Positions 12,862 through 18,145 of a stretch of 64,000 nucleotides of DNA are shown here, piece after piece. Position numbers and translations under genes: made by a program. Under the pieces are notes generated by a model that was given only the letters and a program-made list of their open reading frames with translations, did no database searches and had not been told where the DNA came from. Position 1 is the stretch's first letter; every line of letters starts with the position of its first letter. The DNA is from Thermoplasmata archaeon. GTDB taxonomy: Archaea; Thermoplasmatota; Thermoplasmata; RBG-16-68-12; JAFNFQ01. The stretch lies in contig JBGPQV010000001.1 in NCBI GenBank assembly GCA_041489255.1, positions 256,001-320,000 on the forward strand, in the 5' to 3' direction.

Positions 12862-13689
12862 ATGCAACTGACACTACAATCCAGGGTGAAGCTCAACAAC
12901 GGCGTCGAGATGCCGATGCTGGGATTGGGCGTCTGGCAGATGGCGCAGGGTATCGAGACACAACGCGCCGTCAAGTCTGCTCTGGGCGTTGGCTATCGCC
13001 TCATCGACACCGCCAAGCTCTACGCGAACGAGAGAGACGTCGGCATCGCCGTCGGGGAGAGCGAGATTCTCCGCGAAGAGGTGTTCGTGACAACCAAGCT
13101 CTGGAACACGGACCACGGCTTCGAGCCTGCGATCAAGGCTTTCAACAGGAGCCTGCACGAACTCGGGTTTGACTATGTCGATCTCTACCTGATACATTGG
13201 CCTGTGGCGCCTCTGAGGGGAGACAGTTGGCGGGCTTTGGTGAGACTCCTGGAAGAGGGGAAGTGCCGGGCAATCGGGGTCAGCAACTACACCGTCGACC
13301 ATCTCCGGGGACTCTTGAGGGACTCCTCAGTAGTGCCGGCGGTCAACCAGGTCGAGTTCAGCCCATTCCTCTTTCAGGAGGAACTCATGGACTCCTGTCA
13401 AGATCACAACATACAGCTTGAGGCCTACAGCCCGTTGACGAAGGGAGCGAGACTAGGCGACCCGAAGCTGAGACCCTTCGCGGCAAAGTATCACAAGACC
13501 GCCGCCCAGATTCTCATCCGATGGGCGTTGCAGCACAACGTCGTCGTGATACCCAAGTCCAGCAGACCGGAAAGGATCCTGGAGAACGGTCAGGTGTTCG
13601 ACTTCGAGATCTCATCCGCCGACATGAAGATGCTCGATTCTCTCGGAGAGGATTATCGCACCGCCTGGGACCCCACGAACACCCGATAG
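12862..13689 (+). CDS. Aldo/keto reductase
   Basis: GYRLIDTAKLY, TTKLW, DLYLIHWP, IGVSNY, NQVE, IPKS. Confidence 0.95.
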   Translation: MQLTLQSRVKLNNGVEMPMLGLGVWQMAQGIETQRAVKSALGVGYRLIDTAKLYANERDVGIAVGESEILREEVFVTTKLWNTDHGFEPAIKAFNRSLHELGFDYVDLYLIHWPVAPLRGDSWRALVRLLEEGKCRAIGVSNYTVDHLRGLLRDSSVVPAVNQVEFSPFLFQEELMDSCQDHNIQLEAYSPLTKGARLGDPKLRPFAAKYHKTAAQILIRWALQHNVVVIPKSSRPERILENGQVFDFEISSADMKMLDSLGEDYRTAWDPTNTR

Positions 13690-13734
13690 CGGGCCCGCGT
13701 GCATCGGCCCGCGTGTCGCTCGCGCCAACTGACC

Positions 13735-13911
13735 TCAGGTTCGTCTGTCCCCGCCCTGGCCCTTCTGCGCCTTGTACCGCGCCGAGTCGAGGTCGAGGTC
13801 CAGGTCCTCTTCCTTCGCCTTGCCCGGGCTGAATACCTTGCCCGCCTCGAACTCCAGCTTCTTGTCCTGCTTCTTCTTCTTGCGCGGCGCCTGCTCAACC
13901 TGCTGTTCCAT
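13735..13911 (-). CDS. Putative Pup/UBact-like small protein modifier (58 aa)
   Basis: Manual translation MEQQVEQAPRKKKKQDKKLEFEAGKVFSPGKAKEEDLDLDLDSARYKAQKGQGGDRRT; GGGAGG Shine-Dalgarno just upstream; overlaps the PafA-family gene by 17 nt; charged and likely disordered; RY-x4-GQ motif. Confidence 0.75.
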   Translation of the reverse strand: MEQQVEQAPRKKKKQDKKLEFEAGKVFSPGKAKEEDLDLDLDSARYKAQKGQGGDRRT

Positions 13912-15193
13912 GTATATCCTCCCATCTGTGAGCGTAGGGGTCGGGTAGGTCTATGCGGCGGCGGTCGCCGTCGCCGACCATCACAGTGGACCAATCGATG
14001 GACTCGATATTGAACCTGTCGCAGATTTCCCGCCTCAGCGCGGCCCTGGTGTCGCTTGGCGGCTCCTTGATCGCCTTGGCGATGTCGCCGTCCTTCAGCA
14101 GTCTATCCACGAGCCCTTTCGACTGCCTCTTGTAGAAGATGCCTCTCTCAGCTCCGACCTCCGAGTACTGCTTGCAGGCCATCATCTCGACATCGGGTCC
14201 GCTCTTGCTCTCCTTGGCCTCCTGGATGGCGAAGTACCTGTCCAGCCATTCGACCCGCCTGGCGAGTTCTTTCGATTTCCTGCCCTCGATGCCATCGAGG
14301 ACTTCCTCGAGGATTTTCAACGCGCGCTTCTCTCGATCATCCTCCACGATGTTCTCTATCTTCGCCAGGTAATATCTCTGGATCTCCACAGGCGAGACCT
14401 TCTTGCCGCTATTGAGGTGAACCTTCCAGGCTTCCGGGTTCGTCTTCTCGACGTTCTCCCACATGTCCTCGACCGGCGACTTGAGGCGGGGAGCGTCGCC
14501 GAGTTCGTCCATCTCCATGAGCTGCAGTATGGCGGTGGTGGTGAAGTGCCGCAGCAGGATCGCCACCTCGTTCATCAGCGCATCGCCGCAGATGACGTGC
14601 AGCCTGCGCCAGCTCGAGCGGTCCGAGTGTGGCTCGTCGCGCGTGTTGATGAGCCCGGTGTTGTGCATGGTCTCGCCGCTGACGACTGCGCTCGTCAAAT
14701 ATATCATCGGCGATAGGACATACTTCCCGTCGAGGATGTCTCCCGCCCCCGTGTAGATGAACCTGGTGCTGAAGTGCGGCACTAGCTCCTTCACGAACTT
14801 CTCAGGGAAGTCCACGGACCTGTCGACGATGTAGTTCTCATGGCTCCCGTAGCTGACTCCCTCGGGTGACGTGTTGTTCTTGAACGCCCAGATCCTCTCC
14901 CCGCTTGAGAGGTACTTCTCCTCCGTCACCCGCCTCAGCCAATCGATCACCTTCTCGCCCGCCTTCTCCCACAGGAGCATGTCGAATGGGTTGCTCACCT
15001 CGCAGGTGCTCAGCTCGAAGTGACCGACGTCGTAGTAGCAGCGAGAGCCGTTGGTGATGAACTCCCCCGCCAGCTGAAGGTCGCTCTCGCTCAACAGCTC
15101 GAGCGCGAGGGTATGAGGGTCGAACCCCTTGGAGGCAAGCTTCTTCGAGTACATCGTGTACTCGAGTTCTGTCCCCTGGATCCTCTTTCTCAT
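13895..15193 (-). CDS. PafA/Dop family (Pup ligase-like) carboxylate-amine ligase
   Basis: GTELEY, FITNGSRCYYDVGHFELSTCE, KAGE, FKNNT...SYGSHENY, TGAG, INTRDEPH, RRLHVICGD, PPSDTRA, IDW, DLPDPY. Confidence 0.92.
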   Translation of the reverse strand: MRKRIQGTELEYTMYSKKLASKGFDPHTLALELLSESDLQLAGEFITNGSRCYYDVGHFELSTCEVSNPFDMLLWEKAGEKVIDWLRRVTEEKYLSSGERIWAFKNNTSPEGVSYGSHENYIVDRSVDFPEKFVKELVPHFSTRFIYTGAGDILDGKYVLSPMIYLTSAVVSGETMHNTGLINTRDEPHSDRSSWRRLHVICGDALMNEVAILLRHFTTTAILQLMEMDELGDAPRLKSPVEDMWENVEKTNPEAWKVHLNSGKKVSPVEIQRYYLAKIENIVEDDREKRALKILEEVLDGIEGRKSKELARRVEWLDRYFAIQEAKESKSGPDVEMMACKQYSEVGAERGIFYKRQSKGLVDRLLKDGDIAKAIKEPPSDTRAALRREICDRFNIESIDWSTVMVGDGDRRRIDLPDPYAHRWEDIHGTAG

Positions 15194-15195
15194 CC

Positions 15196-16752
15196 TTATC
15201 CTACCATCGGGTCTCCGCCGGCGCTCTTGAATATCTCCCTCTGCCTCTTCTCGTAGAGGTAGACATCGGTTATCGCGTGCTCCTTCGACTCTTCCTCAAT
15301 CGCCTGCTGGAAGTCGTTCAGGTTCAGCCCCTCCTTTTCCCGCTCGGCCTTCTTGAGGTTGAGAATCCTCTTGACGTAATTCTTCTTGGCGGTCTTCACG
15401 ACGGCGGCGATGATTGCTCCGGAGACTATGTCCTTCCTCTTGACGGTCTTGATCGCTTCCTTGGCGTCCGGATCGGTTTTCACCCTGACCCACTTGCTCT
15501 CTCCGTAGAACTCATCAAGCACTGCATTCCTCAGGTACCGGATCGCCTTCTCGTGGTCGCCTTGCTCCCTGACGATGCCCGCTTCGACCGGAAGATCGCC
15601 TGCCAAGTAGATTGAGAGGATCTCCTCGGCCATCTTCCTGCTTGGCCTGGGTATCTCGATTATCTCGTCGAACCGACCGGGCCTAAGGAGTGCCGGATCC
15701 AAGAGATCGGCCCTGTTGGTCGCGCCTATCACGAATACGTCGTGAAGCTCCAGCAGGCCGTCCATCTCGCTGAGTATCTGCGCGATTATGTTCTTGTGCA
15801 CACCTGAGGTGTCCATGTAGCCCCTCACGGTGAAGACCGCCTCGATCTCATCGAAGAAGACGATGCTTGGCCGTCTCTCGTGTGCTTGGCGGAATATCTC
15901 CTTGATGAGCCGCTCGCTTTCCCCCACCCACTTGCTCAGCACGTCGGCGATGCTGACGTTGAAGAATGTCATGTCGTTCTCGGTCGCGACGGCCTTCACC
16001 ATGAGGGTCTTCCCGCATCCAGGCGGACCGTGAAGCAGTATGCCCCGGGGCGCCTCCAGGTTGATCTTCTTGAACAGCTTCTGCTCCTTGAACGGGAGAA
16101 TCGTCACATCCCTGATCCTCTCGATAGCCTCCCCCAGTCCGCCAATCTGCGCATAGTGGACATTCGGCTTCTCACCCAGCAGCAGGTTCTTCACTTCAAG
16201 ATTCGGGAGGACCTCGATCAGCTCCATGGTCGGCGGGAGGACAGATATCTGGAACCCGGGCTTCAGCTTCCCGATGATCTCCTTCTCGGCGGAGACCAAC
16301 CTCTTCTCCATGTCGCCTTCGACAGTGATCACAAGCTTGCCTTCGAGGATGTCAGCGACCTTCGCAATCACTCCTTCATTTCTGGCGTTGCTGCTCTCGA
16401 CAATCGCGTATGTCTGCGGATGAACCCAGACGTACTGCCCTATGTTCAGCGTCGACTTGTCGACGAGGCCTGTGCTGACCTTCAGGAGCTCCATCGACCT
16501 CGCGACCACGACCTGGCTCGCGTCGAGATCCGGTCCTTCCTTCCTGACGACGTAGGCATATAGCAGAGGCGGCTGCTTGATCTTGTTGAATTTCTCCTCA
16601 TAGGCCTTGAGCCTATACTCCCTCTCATCCACCTCATAGCGGAAGGCCTGCAGATCCCTCTCGTACTGCCGCTTGAGTCGGTCGAGCTTCTCCTCGTACT
16701 CTTCCTTCATTTCGTCGAGCGATTCCTGATCCTTTTGCTTGGTTTCCGGCAT
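15196..16752 (-). CDS. Mpa/ARC-type proteasome-associated AAA+ ATPase
   Basis: N-terminal coiled coil ending in QPP, then ~130 aa consistent with two OB folds; YAQIGGL, GPPGCGKT, KWVGESE, FFDE, LLRPGRFD, and ARC-like SGAII..VV..AKK. Confidence 0.88.
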   Translation of the reverse strand: MPETKQKDQESLDEMKEEYEEKLDRLKRQYERDLQAFRYEVDEREYRLKAYEEKFNKIKQPPLLYAYVVRKEGPDLDASQVVVARSMELLKVSTGLVDKSTLNIGQYVWVHPQTYAIVESSNARNEGVIAKVADILEGKLVITVEGDMEKRLVSAEKEIIGKLKPGFQISVLPPTMELIEVLPNLEVKNLLLGEKPNVHYAQIGGLGEAIERIRDVTILPFKEQKLFKKINLEAPRGILLHGPPGCGKTLMVKAVATENDMTFFNVSIADVLSKWVGESERLIKEIFRQAHERRPSIVFFDEIEAVFTVRGYMDTSGVHKNIIAQILSEMDGLLELHDVFVIGATNRADLLDPALLRPGRFDEIIEIPRPSRKMAEEILSIYLAGDLPVEAGIVREQGDHEKAIRYLRNAVLDEFYGESKWVRVKTDPDAKEAIKTVKRKDIVSGAIIAAVVKTAKKNYVKRILNLKKAEREKEGLNLNDFQQAIEEESKEHAITDVYLYEKRQREIFKSAGGDPMVG

Positions 16753-16993: not shown

Positions 16994-18145
16994 TCATGAC
17001 AGCCCGTGATACTTGAACGCTTTCCTCTTGACGCCGTCGACGACCTTCTTCACCGCACTCGACACAGCGCCGCCATCCTGTGTTTCCTCGGAATCCCTCA
17101 GCGTCCCGCCTTTCGGGGCGATCGCGTATGTGATCTTGCAGTACTCCATCCATTCGATCGGCAGGTCGTTTGCCAGCTCCTTCCCGAGCATCCTGGCGAA
17201 GAAGAGAGCCCATATCCTCGGGCAGATCATGATATCATAACCGCCGCCAGTCACCGCCACCCATCGCCCGCCGCCATATCTCCTCGAAATCTCGTCGAAG
17301 TCCCTGCCGATCTCCTCGTAAGCCCGCGTGGTCAGGTTCAGGTGGGCCAGCGGGTCGGCGAAGTGCGCGTCAGCGCCGAGCTGGGTGAACAACACCTCTG
17401 GCTTGAACGCCTCTGCCAAAGGGATGACGATTTCTTTGAAGGCATGCAGATAGCTCGCGTCTCCCGAGTATGGGGGCAACGGGACGTTCACGGTGTAGCC
17501 CTCCCCGTCACCCGTGCCGATCTCATCGATGTCGCCTGTCCCTGGGAATAAATAGTGACCGTCCTCGTGGATTGAGACTTTCAGGACTCGGGGATCGTCG
17601 ATGAATATCGATTGCACACCGTCTGCATGATGAACATCTATGTCGACGTACATCACCCTGCTCAGGCCATATTTTCCGAGCAACCGCTTTATGCCAACGG
17701 CAATATCATTCAGGAGACAAAACCCGGACGCTCTCGCAGGCATGGCATGGTGGAACCCGCCACCTAGGTTCATGGCCTTTTCCGTCTCCCCTTTCGCGAC
17801 CGCATCGCAGGCGAGCATGGTCCCGCCGACATGGAGGCTTGCCGCCTCGAACATCCCTGCGAACACCGGATTGTCCGAGATGCCCAGACCGTGTGAGAAC
17901 GATTGGCCGTCCGGGTGCTCGCTCAAGTGCTCGAGAACCTCTAGGTAGCCTCTGTCGTGCACGGCGATCAGGTCTTCGTATTCGGCGAGGCTGGGTTTCA
18001 TTTCGACCGCGCCCTTCGGCCCTATGAGCCCGTAATCCTGCATGAGCATCTTCGTGAGGAGGAGCCGCTCCTCCCTCATTGCATGCCCTTCCCCGAAATT
18101 GTATTTTAGGTACTTGTCATCATAGACAAGGACAGGGCTGGCCAT
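16994..18145 (-). CDS. Zn-dependent deacetylase (HDAC/AcuC family)
   Basis: GGFHHA, SGFCLLND, DIDVHHADG, QLGADAH, GGGY all intact. Confidence 0.93.
   Translation of the reverse strand: MASPVLVYDDKYLKYNFGEGHAMREERLLLTKMLMQDYGLIGPKGAVEMKPSLAEYEDLIAVHDRGYLEVLEHLSEHPDGQSFSHGLGISDNPVFAGMFEAASLHVGGTMLACDAVAKGETEKAMNLGGGFHHAMPARASGFCLLNDIAVGIKRLLGKYGLSRVMYVDIDVHHADGVQSIFIDDPRVLKVSIHEDGHYLFPGTGDIDEIGTGDGEGYTVNVPLPPYSGDASYLHAFKEIVIPLAEAFKPEVLFTQLGADAHFADPLAHLNLTTRAYEEIGRDFDEISRRYGGGRWVAVTGGGYDIMICPRIWALFFARMLGKELANDLPIEWMEYCKITYAIAPKGGTLRDSEETQDGGAVSSAVKKVVDGVKRKAFKYHGLS

What the first reader, a model, noticed from the sequence alone, without database searches (positions are those of the whole stretch)
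13735..13776. Candidate tag has an internal GQ followed by a GGDRRT extension
Seen: the ORF ends ...ARYKAQKGQ-GGDRRT-stop, so Gln52 occupies the position of the terminal Q/E of Pup/UBact but six residues follow it. Established: Pup and UBact end in G-[QE] and Pup is linked through the gamma-carboxylate of the terminal Glu. Inference, three options: (a) conjugation through an internal Gln/Glu side chain; (b) proteolytic maturation exposing GQ or GG, as for ubiquitin precursors; (c) recent loss of the stop codon.
Basis: partly seen in the sequence, partly recalled or inferred. Interest (0 to 1): 0.85.

Follow-up and report, generated by a model that had tools for sequence, protein, structure and literature searches.

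The report
Archaeal Pup-like tag, buried Gln
A small protein next to a bacterial-type protein-tagging enzyme in a sediment archaeon carries its likely attachment residue six positions before its end, and the enzyme has lost the two arginines that every bacterial relative examined keeps, so tagging may work through an internal residue, which has not been described.

Summary
The 58-codon ORF at 13735..13911 (-) ends ...ARYKAQKGQ-GGDRRT-stop. It overlaps the 3' end of the genome's only Pup-ligase-family gene, which follows an Mpa-like ATPase.

A lost stop or sequencing error is excluded:
- 102 of 103 database homologues and every tag read in related archaeal loci keep K-G-[Q/E]-G-G-D-R, or K-G-Q-A-G-T-R in a second clade, plus 1-13 further residues. 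None ends at G-[Q/E].
- The tail codons vary synonymously but not in amino acid.
- Residue 52 is only ever Q or E, with at least 5 switches on the ligase tree. This is the pattern of Pup's last residue.

All 23 aligned archaeal ligases lack two arginines. One of these binds Pup's C-terminus in PafA. Both are present in 97 of 97 bacterial PafA/Dop ORFs, whose 37 Pup genes all stop right after GG[Q/E].

A complex model (ipSAE 0.65, best control 0.00) puts Q52 at the catalytic site and G53/G54 on the Arg-to-Thr position.

Best reading (0.55): a Pup-like tag ligated through an internal Gln/Glu side chain with the tail kept. C-terminal processing remains possible (0.25). My searches of the held library found no printed description. 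This scan reported the same family earlier on other genomes.

The parts
13735..13911 (-). Tag gene, 58 aa including stop. It has a Lys-rich N-terminus, a conserved KLEFEAGKVF block, an acidic DLDLDSARY block, and then K50-G51-Q52-G53-G54-D55-R56-R57-T58.
   Evidence: There are 103 database homologues. Purifying selection acts at the amino-acid level while codons vary synonymously. It is the single full copy in the genome.
13756..13758 (-). Codon of Gln52 (CAG), the proposed attachment residue.
   Evidence: Only Q or E occurs here: 73 Q and 29 E among 102 proteins; 13 Q and 28 E among 41 GGDR-type loci. There are at least 5 Q/E changes on the ligase tree of 30 GGDR-type rows. In the model it touches ligase E11, G116, T175 and M176.
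13738..13755 (-). Six-codon tail G53-G54-D55-R56-R57-T58 after Gln52.
   Evidence: 41 loci: G53 uses 4 codons, G54 uses 4, D55 uses 2 and R56 uses 6, and the amino acid is always the same. R57 is R in 40 loci and K in 1. Position 58 is T, A, S, G or Q. In the model G53/G54 touch ligase S114, L166 and T179.
13895..15193 (-). Pup-ligase-family enzyme, 432 aa. It is the only PF03136 gene in the genome. Its last 17 nt overlap the tag's start.
   Evidence: PF03136 scores 289 bits against a cut-off of 25. It is below the equivalog cut-offs of PafA and Dop. Against PDB, Dop scores 192 bits and PafA 140 bits. Single copy. On the tree it falls outside both the Dop and PafA clades.
14624..14722 (-). Ligase residues 158-190 (YVLSPMIYLTSAVVSGETMHNTGLINTRDEPHS): the alpha-loop region. 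M163 and T179 stand where bacterial enzymes have Arg.
   Evidence: The role of PafA R201 comes from PMC8599861 section 6.
13918..13922 (-). GGAGG Shine-Dalgarno-like motif 6 nt upstream of the tag's ATG, inside the end of the ligase gene.
   Evidence: Read directly. Whether it acts as a ribosome-binding site is an inference.
15196..16752 (-). Mpa/ARC-like AAA ATPase, 518 aa, with an N-terminal coiled coil, an OB domain and one AAA domain. Its C-terminus is ...GGDPMVG.
   Evidence: TIGR03689 scores 350 bits, its best NCBIfam match but below the cut-off of 505. Pfam finds AAA plus Prot_ATP_ID_OB_C. The match to Mpa chains is collinear, query 42-466. An ATPase gene lies upstream of the ligase in most GGDR-type loci. 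Orthologues were found in 4 of 5 genomes of the second clade.

Best explanation
The ORF encodes the modifier of an archaeal, Pup-like protein-tagging system. The system consists of an Mpa-like unfoldase, one PafA/Dop-family enzyme and the tag. The tag binds along the enzyme's groove. The side chain of residue 52 enters the ATP/Mg site, either as Glu or as Gln that the same enzyme first converts. There it is activated as a gamma-glutamyl phosphate and joined to a lysine of a target protein. Unlike Pup, residue 52 is not the last residue. The chain continues as G-G-D-R-R-x and leaves the active site across the place where bacterial enzymes hold the C-terminal carboxylate with arginine; here that place holds Thr-Gly and Pro-Met. 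The conjugate would therefore be branched, with the tail still attached. What is shown: the gene is real and conserved; the tail is under amino-acid-level selection; position 52 switches between Q and E; there is only one enzyme; the arginines are lost in exactly the clade that has extended tags. What is modelled only: the pose in the enzyme. What is inferred: conjugation itself, its target lysines, the dual deamidase/ligase role of the single enzyme, and delivery of tagged proteins to the 20S proteasome, whose genes lie elsewhere in the genome.
For: 1. Genomic context. The order is ATPase, ligase, tag with a 17-nt overlap. A tag ORF lies directly 3' of the ligase in 41 of 42 loci; the 42nd, L015, is cut off.
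2. The tail is conserved. 102 of 103 proteins and 41 loci have an invariant GGDR with synonymous codon variation. A second clade has an invariant AGTR: 13 loci and 5 more.
3. Residue 52 behaves like Pup's last residue. It is only ever Q or E, with at least 5 switches among 30 rows. The bacterial Pup genes fetched here end in Q (24) or E (13).
4. The pocket co-varies with the tag end. M/S/C163 and T179-G180 occur in 23 of 23 archaeal ligases. In bacterial PafA/Dop ORFs both positions are Arg in 97 of 97. Among family-wide representatives they are R/K in 132 of 132 and 131 of 132. All 37 Pup-motif ORFs in those bacterial loci stop right after GG[QE]. In the PafA-Pup crystal complex, Pup's C-terminus salt-bridges R201 (PMC8599861 section 6). 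By the alignment, R201 corresponds to T179 here.
5. The rest of the catalytic set is kept: E9, E11, D55 (the position mutated to Asn in 4BJR), H58, H118-E119-N120-Y121, T175, R185, H189.
6. Complex model of ligase, tag, ATP and 2 Mg. ipSAE was 0.61, 0.65 and 0.72 in three runs against a best control of 0.00. That mark was reached by 58 of 80 solved complexes and 2 of 110 mismatched pairs. Partner pLDDT was at least 52 and the runs agree in at least 44% of contacts. Q52 touches E11, G116, T175 and M176. G53/G54 touch S114, L166 and T179.
7. There is only one PF03136 gene in a genome that is 96% complete, and one per genome in 22 genomes of the phylum sample.
8. Nothing recognisable as a protease recurs among the conserved neighbours.
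Against: There is no biochemical evidence at all, and conjugation has not been seen. The tag has no detectable sequence homology to Pup. Pfam and NCBIfam find nothing. A tag profile does not hit the Pup chains in PDB. hhalign of the tag profile against 20 bacterial Pup sequences gives a probability of 4.9%. The analogy therefore rests on context, composition and the Q/E site. The complex model may partly reproduce solved PafA-Pup and Dop-Pup complexes from memory. Its calibration did not include ligands or user-supplied alignments. Partner confidence is moderate (pLDDT 52-66). An invariant G-G-D-R after Q/E could equally be a protease recognition site, and a protease encoded elsewhere cannot be excluded. 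The role of the first lost arginine (bacterial S-Q-R) was not found in the passages I read. The tags of the nearest arginine-retaining outgroups (P0110, P0123, P0204) could not be read, so the timing of arginine loss relative to tail gain is not resolved.
Confidence: 0.55

Rival explanations
1. C-terminal maturation. A protease, or the ligase-family enzyme itself, removes G-G-D-R-R-x so that Gln/Glu52 becomes the C-terminal residue. The tag is then ligated exactly as Pup is. The conserved GGDR/AGTR is the cleavage signal, or a pro-peptide that keeps the tag inactive.
For: Ubiquitin-type modifiers are made as precursors with C-terminal extensions (established knowledge). The first four tail residues are invariant while the far tail varies in length from 1 to 13 residues. 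That pattern would fit a recognition site followed by a disposable end. One database protein, P0302, has about 70 residues after the Gln.
Against: If a free alpha-carboxylate were produced, there would be no reason for the whole clade to lose both arginines, which are kept in 97 of 97 bacterial enzymes and in 131-132 of 132 representatives. One of these binds Pup's C-terminus in PafA. Nothing recognisable as a protease recurs among the conserved neighbours of the locus, although that check only covered homologues of window genes. The complex model accommodates the tail on the enzyme with low expected error for residues 53-57.
Confidence: 0.25
2. The small protein is not a protein-conjugated tag. 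It could be a groove-binding regulator or adaptor of the enzyme or ATPase. Alternatively it could be a substrate whose Glu/Gln52 is amidated with a small amine by this carboxylate-amine ligase, or cross-linked to one of its own many lysines, rather than joined to other proteins.
For: The enzyme lies outside the Dop and PafA clades and below both equivalog cut-offs. The tag is not homologous to Pup by sequence. The superfamily includes small-molecule ligases such as glutamine synthetase and gamma-glutamyl-cysteine synthetases (PMC7947786 passages). A genus-specific paralogue-like ORF keeps the groove-binding motifs but has no K-G-[QE] site.
Against: The partnership with an Mpa-like unfoldase is conserved. 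R185, the residue equivalent to PafA R207 that is needed for protein-substrate pupylation, is kept (PMC10465538 passages). The Q/E toggle is the signature of a residue used as a gamma-carboxylate donor.
Confidence: 0.12
3. Local artefact: a recent stop-codon loss or a sequencing/assembly error lengthened a tag that normally ends at G-Q.
For: None was found.
Against: No homologue ends at G-[QE]. The tail codons show synonymous variation with a fixed amino acid. Three other runs' contigs agree with the window base for base across the tail.
Confidence: 0.01

Closest known systems
Pup-proteasome system of Actinobacteria (Pup, PafA, Dop, Mpa/ARC, PrcAB)
   Same: The tag is small, acidic and lysine-flanked, and is encoded with a PafA/Dop-family enzyme and a coiled-coil/OB/AAA ATPase. 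A G-[Q/E] site switches between Gln and Glu as Pup's last residue does. The spacing [YF]-x4-G-[QE] matches the bacterial Pup ends read here (...[YF]-[VI]-Q-[KR]-G-G-[QE]). The catalytic residues of the enzyme are kept.
   Different: The host is an archaeon. There is one enzyme instead of two, without a Dop loop and outside both the Dop and PafA clades. The Q/E is internal and is followed by a conserved tail. Both pocket arginines are replaced. The tag is not detectably homologous to Pup. The ATPase ends in DPMVG rather than a penultimate-Tyr motif (the motif itself is recalled). The 20S genes are not in the operon.
UBact, the Pup-like modifier of some Gram-negative phyla (recalled; the original description is not in the held library)
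   Same: It is a Pup-like tag outside Actinobacteria, next to PafA/Dop and Mpa homologues. From recall, it ends in G-[E/Q].
   Different: As I recall, UBact ends at the G-[E/Q]; the archaeal tag does not. I fetched no UBact sequence, so nothing about it was tested here. One search listed 21 papers holding the word, and none was its description.
Ubiquitin, SAMP and other beta-grasp modifier precursors with C-terminal extensions
   Same: Extra residues follow the residue that would be conjugated.
   Different: Those are folded beta-grasp proteins activated at the alpha-carboxylate of a terminal Gly by E1-type enzymes after the extension is cleaved. Here the enzyme is a glutamine-synthetase-fold gamma-carboxylate ligase, and the beginning of the tail is invariant rather than disposable-looking.

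Membership tests
Pup (prokaryotic ubiquitin-like protein family) | Match to the family's sequence profile | tested here: not met
   No Pfam or NCBIfam family matches the tag at E<=0.01. None of 37 members hits a Pup model at E<=10. hhalign against 20 bacterial Pup sequences gives probability 4.9% over 14 N-terminal columns only.
Pup (prokaryotic ubiquitin-like protein family) | Gln or Glu as the very last residue (G-G-[QE]-stop) | tested here: not met
   Six residues follow Q52 here. No archaeal tag read in any call ends at G-[QE]. In contrast, 37 of 37 bacterial Pup-motif ORFs stop right after GG[QE].
Pup (prokaryotic ubiquitin-like protein family) | Gln/Glu interchange at the attachment residue | tested here: met
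   73 Q and 29 E among 102 proteins. At least 5 changes on the tree of 30 rows. No other residue was ever seen at this position.
Pup (prokaryotic ubiquitin-like protein family) | Binds the ligase groove with the Q/E in the active site | tested here: inconclusive
   This rests on a model only. ipSAE median is 0.65 against a best control of 0.00 (the mark was reached by 58 of 80 solved and 2 of 110 mismatched pairs). Partner pLDDT is at least 52 and contact agreement at least 44%. Q52 touches E11, G116, T175 and M176. Solved PafA-Pup and Dop-Pup complexes exist, so the pass may partly come from memory.
Pup (prokaryotic ubiquitin-like protein family) | Isopeptide bond from the gamma-carboxylate to substrate lysines | not testable with these tools
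   Needs biochemistry or proteomics.
PafA/Dop (Pup_ligase, PF03136) | Family profile above the curated cut-off | tested here: met
   289 bits against a cut-off of 25.
PafA/Dop (Pup_ligase, PF03136) | Equivalog score of PafA (TIGR03686) or of Dop (TIGR03688) | tested here: not met
   250.2 bits against a cut-off of 551.3, and 246.5 against 492.3. On the tree the archaeal clade (support 100) groups with P0110, P0123 and P0204, outside both the Dop clade and the PafA groups. This is a quick tree with long branches.
PafA/Dop (Pup_ligase, PF03136) | Catalytic and nucleotide/Mg residues (G-x-E-x-E, catalytic Asp, H-E-N-Y, N-T-R-D-E-P-H) | tested here: met
   E9, E11, D55, H118-Y121, T184-R185-D186-E187-P188-H189 are invariant in 23 archaeal sequences and align to PafA and Dop chains.
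PafA/Dop (Pup_ligase, PF03136) | The two arginines flanking the alpha-loop (S-Q-R, and R201 of C. glutamicum PafA / R221 of Dop) | tested here: not met
   These positions are M163 and T179 here. They are M/S/C and T in 23 of 23 archaeal ligases. They are Arg in 97 of 97 bacterial ORFs and R/K in 132 of 132 and 131 of 132 representatives.
Dop (depupylase/deamidase) | Dop loop of about 40 residues between G-x-E-x-E and N-G-x-R | tested here: not met
   The spacing is 34-35 aa in 23 of 23 archaeal enzymes. It is 37-38 in 54 short bacterial ORFs and 66-76 in 21 of the long ones.
Mpa/ARC proteasomal ATPase | Equivalog score (TIGR03689) and coiled-coil/OB/AAA architecture | tested here: inconclusive
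   TIGR03689 is the best NCBIfam match but scores 349.6 bits against a cut-off of 504.75. The OB domain scores 24.4 bits against a cut-off of 23. The match to Mpa chains is collinear over query 42-466 at 226-231 bits.
Mpa/ARC proteasomal ATPase | C-terminal proteasome-docking motif with a penultimate Tyr (recalled) | tested here: not met
   The C-terminus is ...DPMVG in 29 of 29 ATPase segments listed, which include two copies of the window's own gene.
UBact | Family membership by sequence, and the C-terminal G-[EQ] end | not tested
Its features are recalled only.

The most novel reading that the evidence does not exclude
A single glutamine-synthetase-fold enzyme in Thermoplasmatota archaea both converts and ligates an internal Gln/Glu of a disordered tag. 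This would make branched conjugates in which both ends of the tag stay free. The invariant G-G-D-R (or A-G-T-R) tail would then be a second functional handle, for the DPMVG-ended unfoldase or for a de-tagging enzyme. This would be the first protein modifier attached through an internal residue and the first Pup-type tagging system in archaea.
Probability: 0.5. Interest if true: 0.9.

Novelty: new variant of a known kind. Interest (0 to 1): 0.8.

Why it matters
Every protein-modifier system I know of (ubiquitin and its relatives, SAMP, Pup) joins the tag by its last residue. A tag joined through an internal side chain would be a new conjugate topology and would widen what counts as a modifier in genome annotation. 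It would also place Pup-type chemistry in archaea. The 2024 review whose passages I read names only SAMP, Urm1 and ubiquitin-like tags there (PMC11354881). A one-enzyme system bears on how PafA and Dop diverged: PMC7947786 (passages) argues for a promiscuous ligase ancestor. The question is directly testable, because the two main readings predict different lysine remnants after trypsin: +571.235 Da against +186.064 Da.

Tried and rejected
Searches that found nothing or were weak:
- The tag matched no Pfam, NCBIfam or PDB-sequence entry. The only hit, to a copper ATPase domain at E=0.23, is chance.
- hhalign of the tag against Pup showed no homology.
- A viral-contig scan with the tag alignment (pattern [GA][KQR]KGQ[AG]G[TD]R) gave 12 pattern matches, none confirmed.
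- A 'longer' search for fused forms gave 13 proteins. I read 10 of them. Most are upstream start miscalls or read-through products from a source without contigs. Only P0302, with about 70 residues after the Gln, looks like a real long tail, and I could not fetch its DNA.

RNA evidence: one RNA-library contig (X24 record 1) covers 13401-13769 with 25 differences. It is a relative's sequence, contigs give no strand, and DNA can be present in such libraries. It says nothing about expression.

Rejected ideas:
- Tail conservation is not due to an RNA structure or terminator, because the codons vary synonymously.
- Cleavage after G54 to expose a ubiquitin-like G-G end is unlikely. The second clade has A-G there, and no E1-type enzyme is among the conserved neighbours.
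- I considered the HDAC-family neighbour as a de-tagging amidase. It is present in 18 of 25 loci with enough upstream DNA, but nothing tests the idea.

Literature: the library searches, and term look-ups in PMC12288473, PMC9239135, PMC9287336, PMC7947786 and PMC11354881, found no description of an archaeal Pup-type system. The library lacks most subscription journals, and supplements were closed, so this is not proof of absence. I read PMC8599861 as passages plus the whole of section 6. I read PMC10465538, PMC7947786, PMC12288473 and PMC11354881 as passages only. All other papers were seen only as search listings.
Full report
WHAT IS THERE

The window's minus strand carries, in order:
- an HDAC-family gene (16994..18145);
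- a 518-aa AAA ATPase (15196..16752);
- a 432-aa Pup_ligase-family gene (13895..15193);
- a 58-codon ORF (13735..13911) that overlaps the ligase gene by 17 nt.

A GGAGG lies 6 nt before its ATG. Record titles of related loci name Thermoplasmata, Methanobacteriota and Methanomassiliicoccales MAGs, so the organism is an archaeon. Contigs from three other public DNA runs match the tail region base for base, with no indels.

THE TAIL IS NOT AN ACCIDENT

A word-indexed search found 103 homologues of 46-99 aa.
- 102 of them carry [YF]-x3-K-G-[QE]-G-G-D-R. The remaining one is a fragment that stops earlier.
- After the Q/E come 6 residues in 89 proteins, 7 to 17 in 11, and 37 or 39 in two products that look like read-through. 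None ends at G-[QE].
- Of the 42 genome loci found with the ligase, 39 have this tag directly 3' of the ligase, two have a variant tag, and one locus is cut.

Codon statistics come from 41 loci with the GGDR-type tag.
- G53 and G54 each use all four Gly codons.
- D55 uses both Asp codons.
- R56 uses six Arg codons.
- The amino acid never changes at any of these four positions.
- R57 is R in 40 loci and K in 1.
- Position 58 is T, A, S, G or Q.

The conservation is therefore at the protein level, not an RNA signal.

A second clade, found in other families of the phylum, has ...D-L-D-[SA]-A-R-F-Q-G-K-K-G-Q-A-G-T-R-[TS]-K-x3. Here A-G-T-R is invariant and Q is always present. It occurs in 13 loci. 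It also occurs in 5 of 5 genomes where the tag is unlinked from the ligase.

RESIDUE 52 BEHAVES LIKE PUP'S LAST RESIDUE

Position 52 is Q in 73 and E in 29 of 102 proteins. It is Q in 13 and E in 28 of the 41 GGDR-type loci. No other residue occurs. I built a ligase tree of 40 rows, limited to loci holding both a full ligase of at least 400 aa and a tag; loci with a partial ligase or an unlinked tag were left out. On that tree the state changes at least 6 times overall, and at least 5 times within the 30 GGDR-type rows. The bacterial Pup genes that I fetched for comparison end in Q (24) or E (13).

THE ENZYME

The ligase matches PF03136 at 289 bits. It stays far below the equivalog cut-offs of both PafA and Dop. 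Against solved structures it scores higher with Dop (192 bits) than with PafA (140 bits). It has no Dop loop: the spacing between G-x-E-x-E and N-G-x-R is 34-35 aa, against 37-38 in PafA-sized bacterial ORFs and 66-76 in Dop-sized ones.

On a quick tree the archaeal clade (support 100) sits with three long-branched representatives, P0110, P0123 and P0204. It lies outside the Dop clade and the PafA groups. P0123 is named by its source as a Nitrososphaerales PafA2-family protein.

It is the only family member in this 96%-complete genome. In a sample of the phylum, 22 of 401 genomes carry the family, 20 of them with one match; one further genome shows two fragments at contig ends and another only a partial match. 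In the window's own order, 12 of 21 genomes have it.

The catalytic set is intact: E9, E11, D55 (the residue mutated to Asn in 4BJR), H-E-N-Y and N-T-R-D-E-P-H.

THE POCKET CO-VARIES WITH THE TAG END

In the pairwise alignments:
- bacterial S-Q-R aligns to S-P-M163 here;
- the Arg that follows the alpha-loop (R201 of C. glutamicum PafA, R221 of Dop) aligns to T179.

I derived the numbering from the residues named in PMC8599861 section 6. [quoted passage not shown] It also states that T217 of Dop hydrogen-bonds Pup's last residue; T217 corresponds to T175 here, which is kept.

The comparison across the family is clean.

| Set | S-Q-R position (163 here) | R201 position (179 here) |
|---|---|---|
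| 23 archaeal ligases | M, S or C in 23 of 23 | T (followed by G) in 23 of 23 |
| 132 non-archaeal representatives of at least 400 aa, from the best 150 of 3755 family hits | R or K in 132 of 132 | R or K in 131 of 132 |
| 97 PafA/Dop ORFs in 80 bacterial-type metagenome loci | Arg in 97 of 97 | Arg in 97 of 97 |

In those 80 bacterial-type loci, 37 hold a Pup-motif ORF, and all 37 stop right after G-G-[QE]. In everything examined, enzymes with both arginines go with tags that end at Q/E, and enzymes without them go with extended tags.

The archaeal clade has also fixed L166-T167-S168 in a segment that varies among the bacterial representatives.

COMPLEX MODEL

I modelled the ligase (23-row alignment) with the tag (37-row alignment), ATP and two Mg.
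- ipSAE was 0.61, 0.65 and 0.72 in three runs, and 0.00 in all three controls.
- The tool's mark was reached by 58 of 80 solved complexes and 2 of 110 mismatched pairs.
- Partner pLDDT was at least 52, and the runs agree in at least 44% of contacts.
- Tag residues 17-27 and 36-57 touch the enzyme.
- Q52 touches E11, G116, T175 and M176.
- G51 touches residues 114-116.
- G53 and G54 touch S114, L166 and T179.

This is the pose expected if Q52 takes the place of Pup's last residue and the chain leaves over the replaced arginine. It is only a model. Solved PafA-Pup and Dop-Pup complexes exist, so part of the score may be memory, and the calibration did not cover ligands or user-supplied alignments.

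HOW IT MOST LIKELY WORKS

Established chemistry, from passages of PMC8599861 and PMC10465538:
- PafA phosphorylates the gamma-carboxylate of Pup's terminal Glu with ATP, and a substrate lysine attacks the mixed anhydride.
- Dop forms a phosphorylated Pup intermediate from the amide or carboxylate side chain.

The chemistry acts on the gamma-carboxylate rather than the alpha-carboxylate, which in the PafA-Pup complex only weakly salt-bridges R201. My inference is that the archaeal enzyme does the same on residue 52 of an uncleaved tag, and that the small residues G-G (or A-G) let the chain exit.

Most tags encode Gln and there is only one enzyme. That enzyme must therefore either deamidate first or pass the Gln-derived acyl-phosphate directly to lysine. 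PMC7947786 (passages) argues that the PafA/Dop ancestor was a ligase with promiscuous Dop-like activity. It also reports that removing the Dop loop and changing the alpha-loop turns Dop into a ligase. A dual-function enzyme is thus plausible but not shown.

The Mpa-like ATPase and the two 20S genes elsewhere in the genome suggest delivery to the proteasome. This is also an inference. The ATPase ends in an invariant DPMVG rather than a Tyr-containing docking motif.

RIVALS

Processing that exposes Q/E52 remains possible, because an invariant G-G-D-R could be a cleavage signal. Three points argue against it: the loss of both arginines, the absence of anything recognisable as a protease among the conserved neighbours, and the modelled fit of the tail.

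A role without conjugation to other proteins cannot be excluded, because the tag is not homologous to Pup and the enzyme is in neither the Dop nor the PafA clade.

A stop-loss or sequencing error is refuted.

COMPARISON AND NOVELTY

By function and context, the closest known system is the actinobacterial Pup-proteasome system. By membership the tag fails the Pup profile and the terminal-Q/E criterion. The enzyme is a PF03136 member but is neither PafA nor Dop.

I found no printed description of a Pup-type system in archaea or of an internally attached modifier (searches; look-ups). The library is incomplete and supplements were closed.

This scan has reported the same family before on other genomes: e1-4512776, e1-2795160, e1-5475811, e1-5475824 and e1-5614338. 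Notes on this same window raised the arginine loss, the single enzyme and the ATPase end: e1-6362417, e1-6362418 and e1-6362419. I re-derived each of these points from tool results.

- the family-wide arginine counts;
- the direct comparison with bacterial Pup loci;
- the codon-level selection on the tail;
- the count of Q/E switches on the tree;
- the controlled complex model;
- the second (A-G-T-R) clade with unlinked tags.

VERDICT

I class this as a new variant of a known kind, with interest 0.8.

Noticed in passing
window 15196-15213 (-): The Mpa-like ATPase ends in ...DPMVG in 29 of 29 ATPase segments listed from related loci, which include two copies of the window's own gene. It has no penultimate-Tyr docking motif, so how or whether it docks on the 20S proteasome is open.
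   Followed up: partly
window 16994-18145 (-): A histone-deacetylase-family amidohydrolase (PF00850, 300 bits) lies upstream on the same strand. It recurs in 18 of 25 related loci that have at least 4 kb of upstream DNA. It could be a lysine de-acylase or de-tagging candidate, or simply a neighbour.
   Followed up: partly
L154:1489-1692 (+) = own genome, contig C3 around 150605-150805: A 67-aa ORF (...NFEPGMIF...DDLQFDIDAETARFREKK...) weakly resembles the tag (21.9 bits, E 6e-4). It keeps the two blocks that touch the ligase in the model but has no K-G-[QE]-G-G-D-R. It is found only in the same genus (85% identity). The weaker matches in other genomes were the true tags. It may be a decayed paralogue or a non-ligatable competitor.
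   Followed up: partly
L037, L038, L046-L062, L068-L072: The second tag clade (K-G-Q-A-G-T-R-T-K-x3) always has Gln. Its ligases also replace the otherwise conserved Thr (T175 here; T in 96 of 97 bacterial ORFs) with Asn (G-G-N-L-S-N-T-G). In one family of genomes the tag is unlinked from the ligase, and in L037/L038 the ATPase is not adjacent.
   Followed up: partly
P0302 (database protein, 121 aa): An A-G-T-R-type tag with about 70 protein-like residues after the Gln. If it is real, the tail can be long.
   Followed up: no
P0123, P0110, P0204 (database proteins): These are the nearest relatives of the archaeal ligase clade. They keep both arginines. One is named as coming from a Nitrososphaerales archaeon, so a second, differently built archaeal Pup-ligase lineage may exist. 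Their tags are unknown.
   Followed up: no
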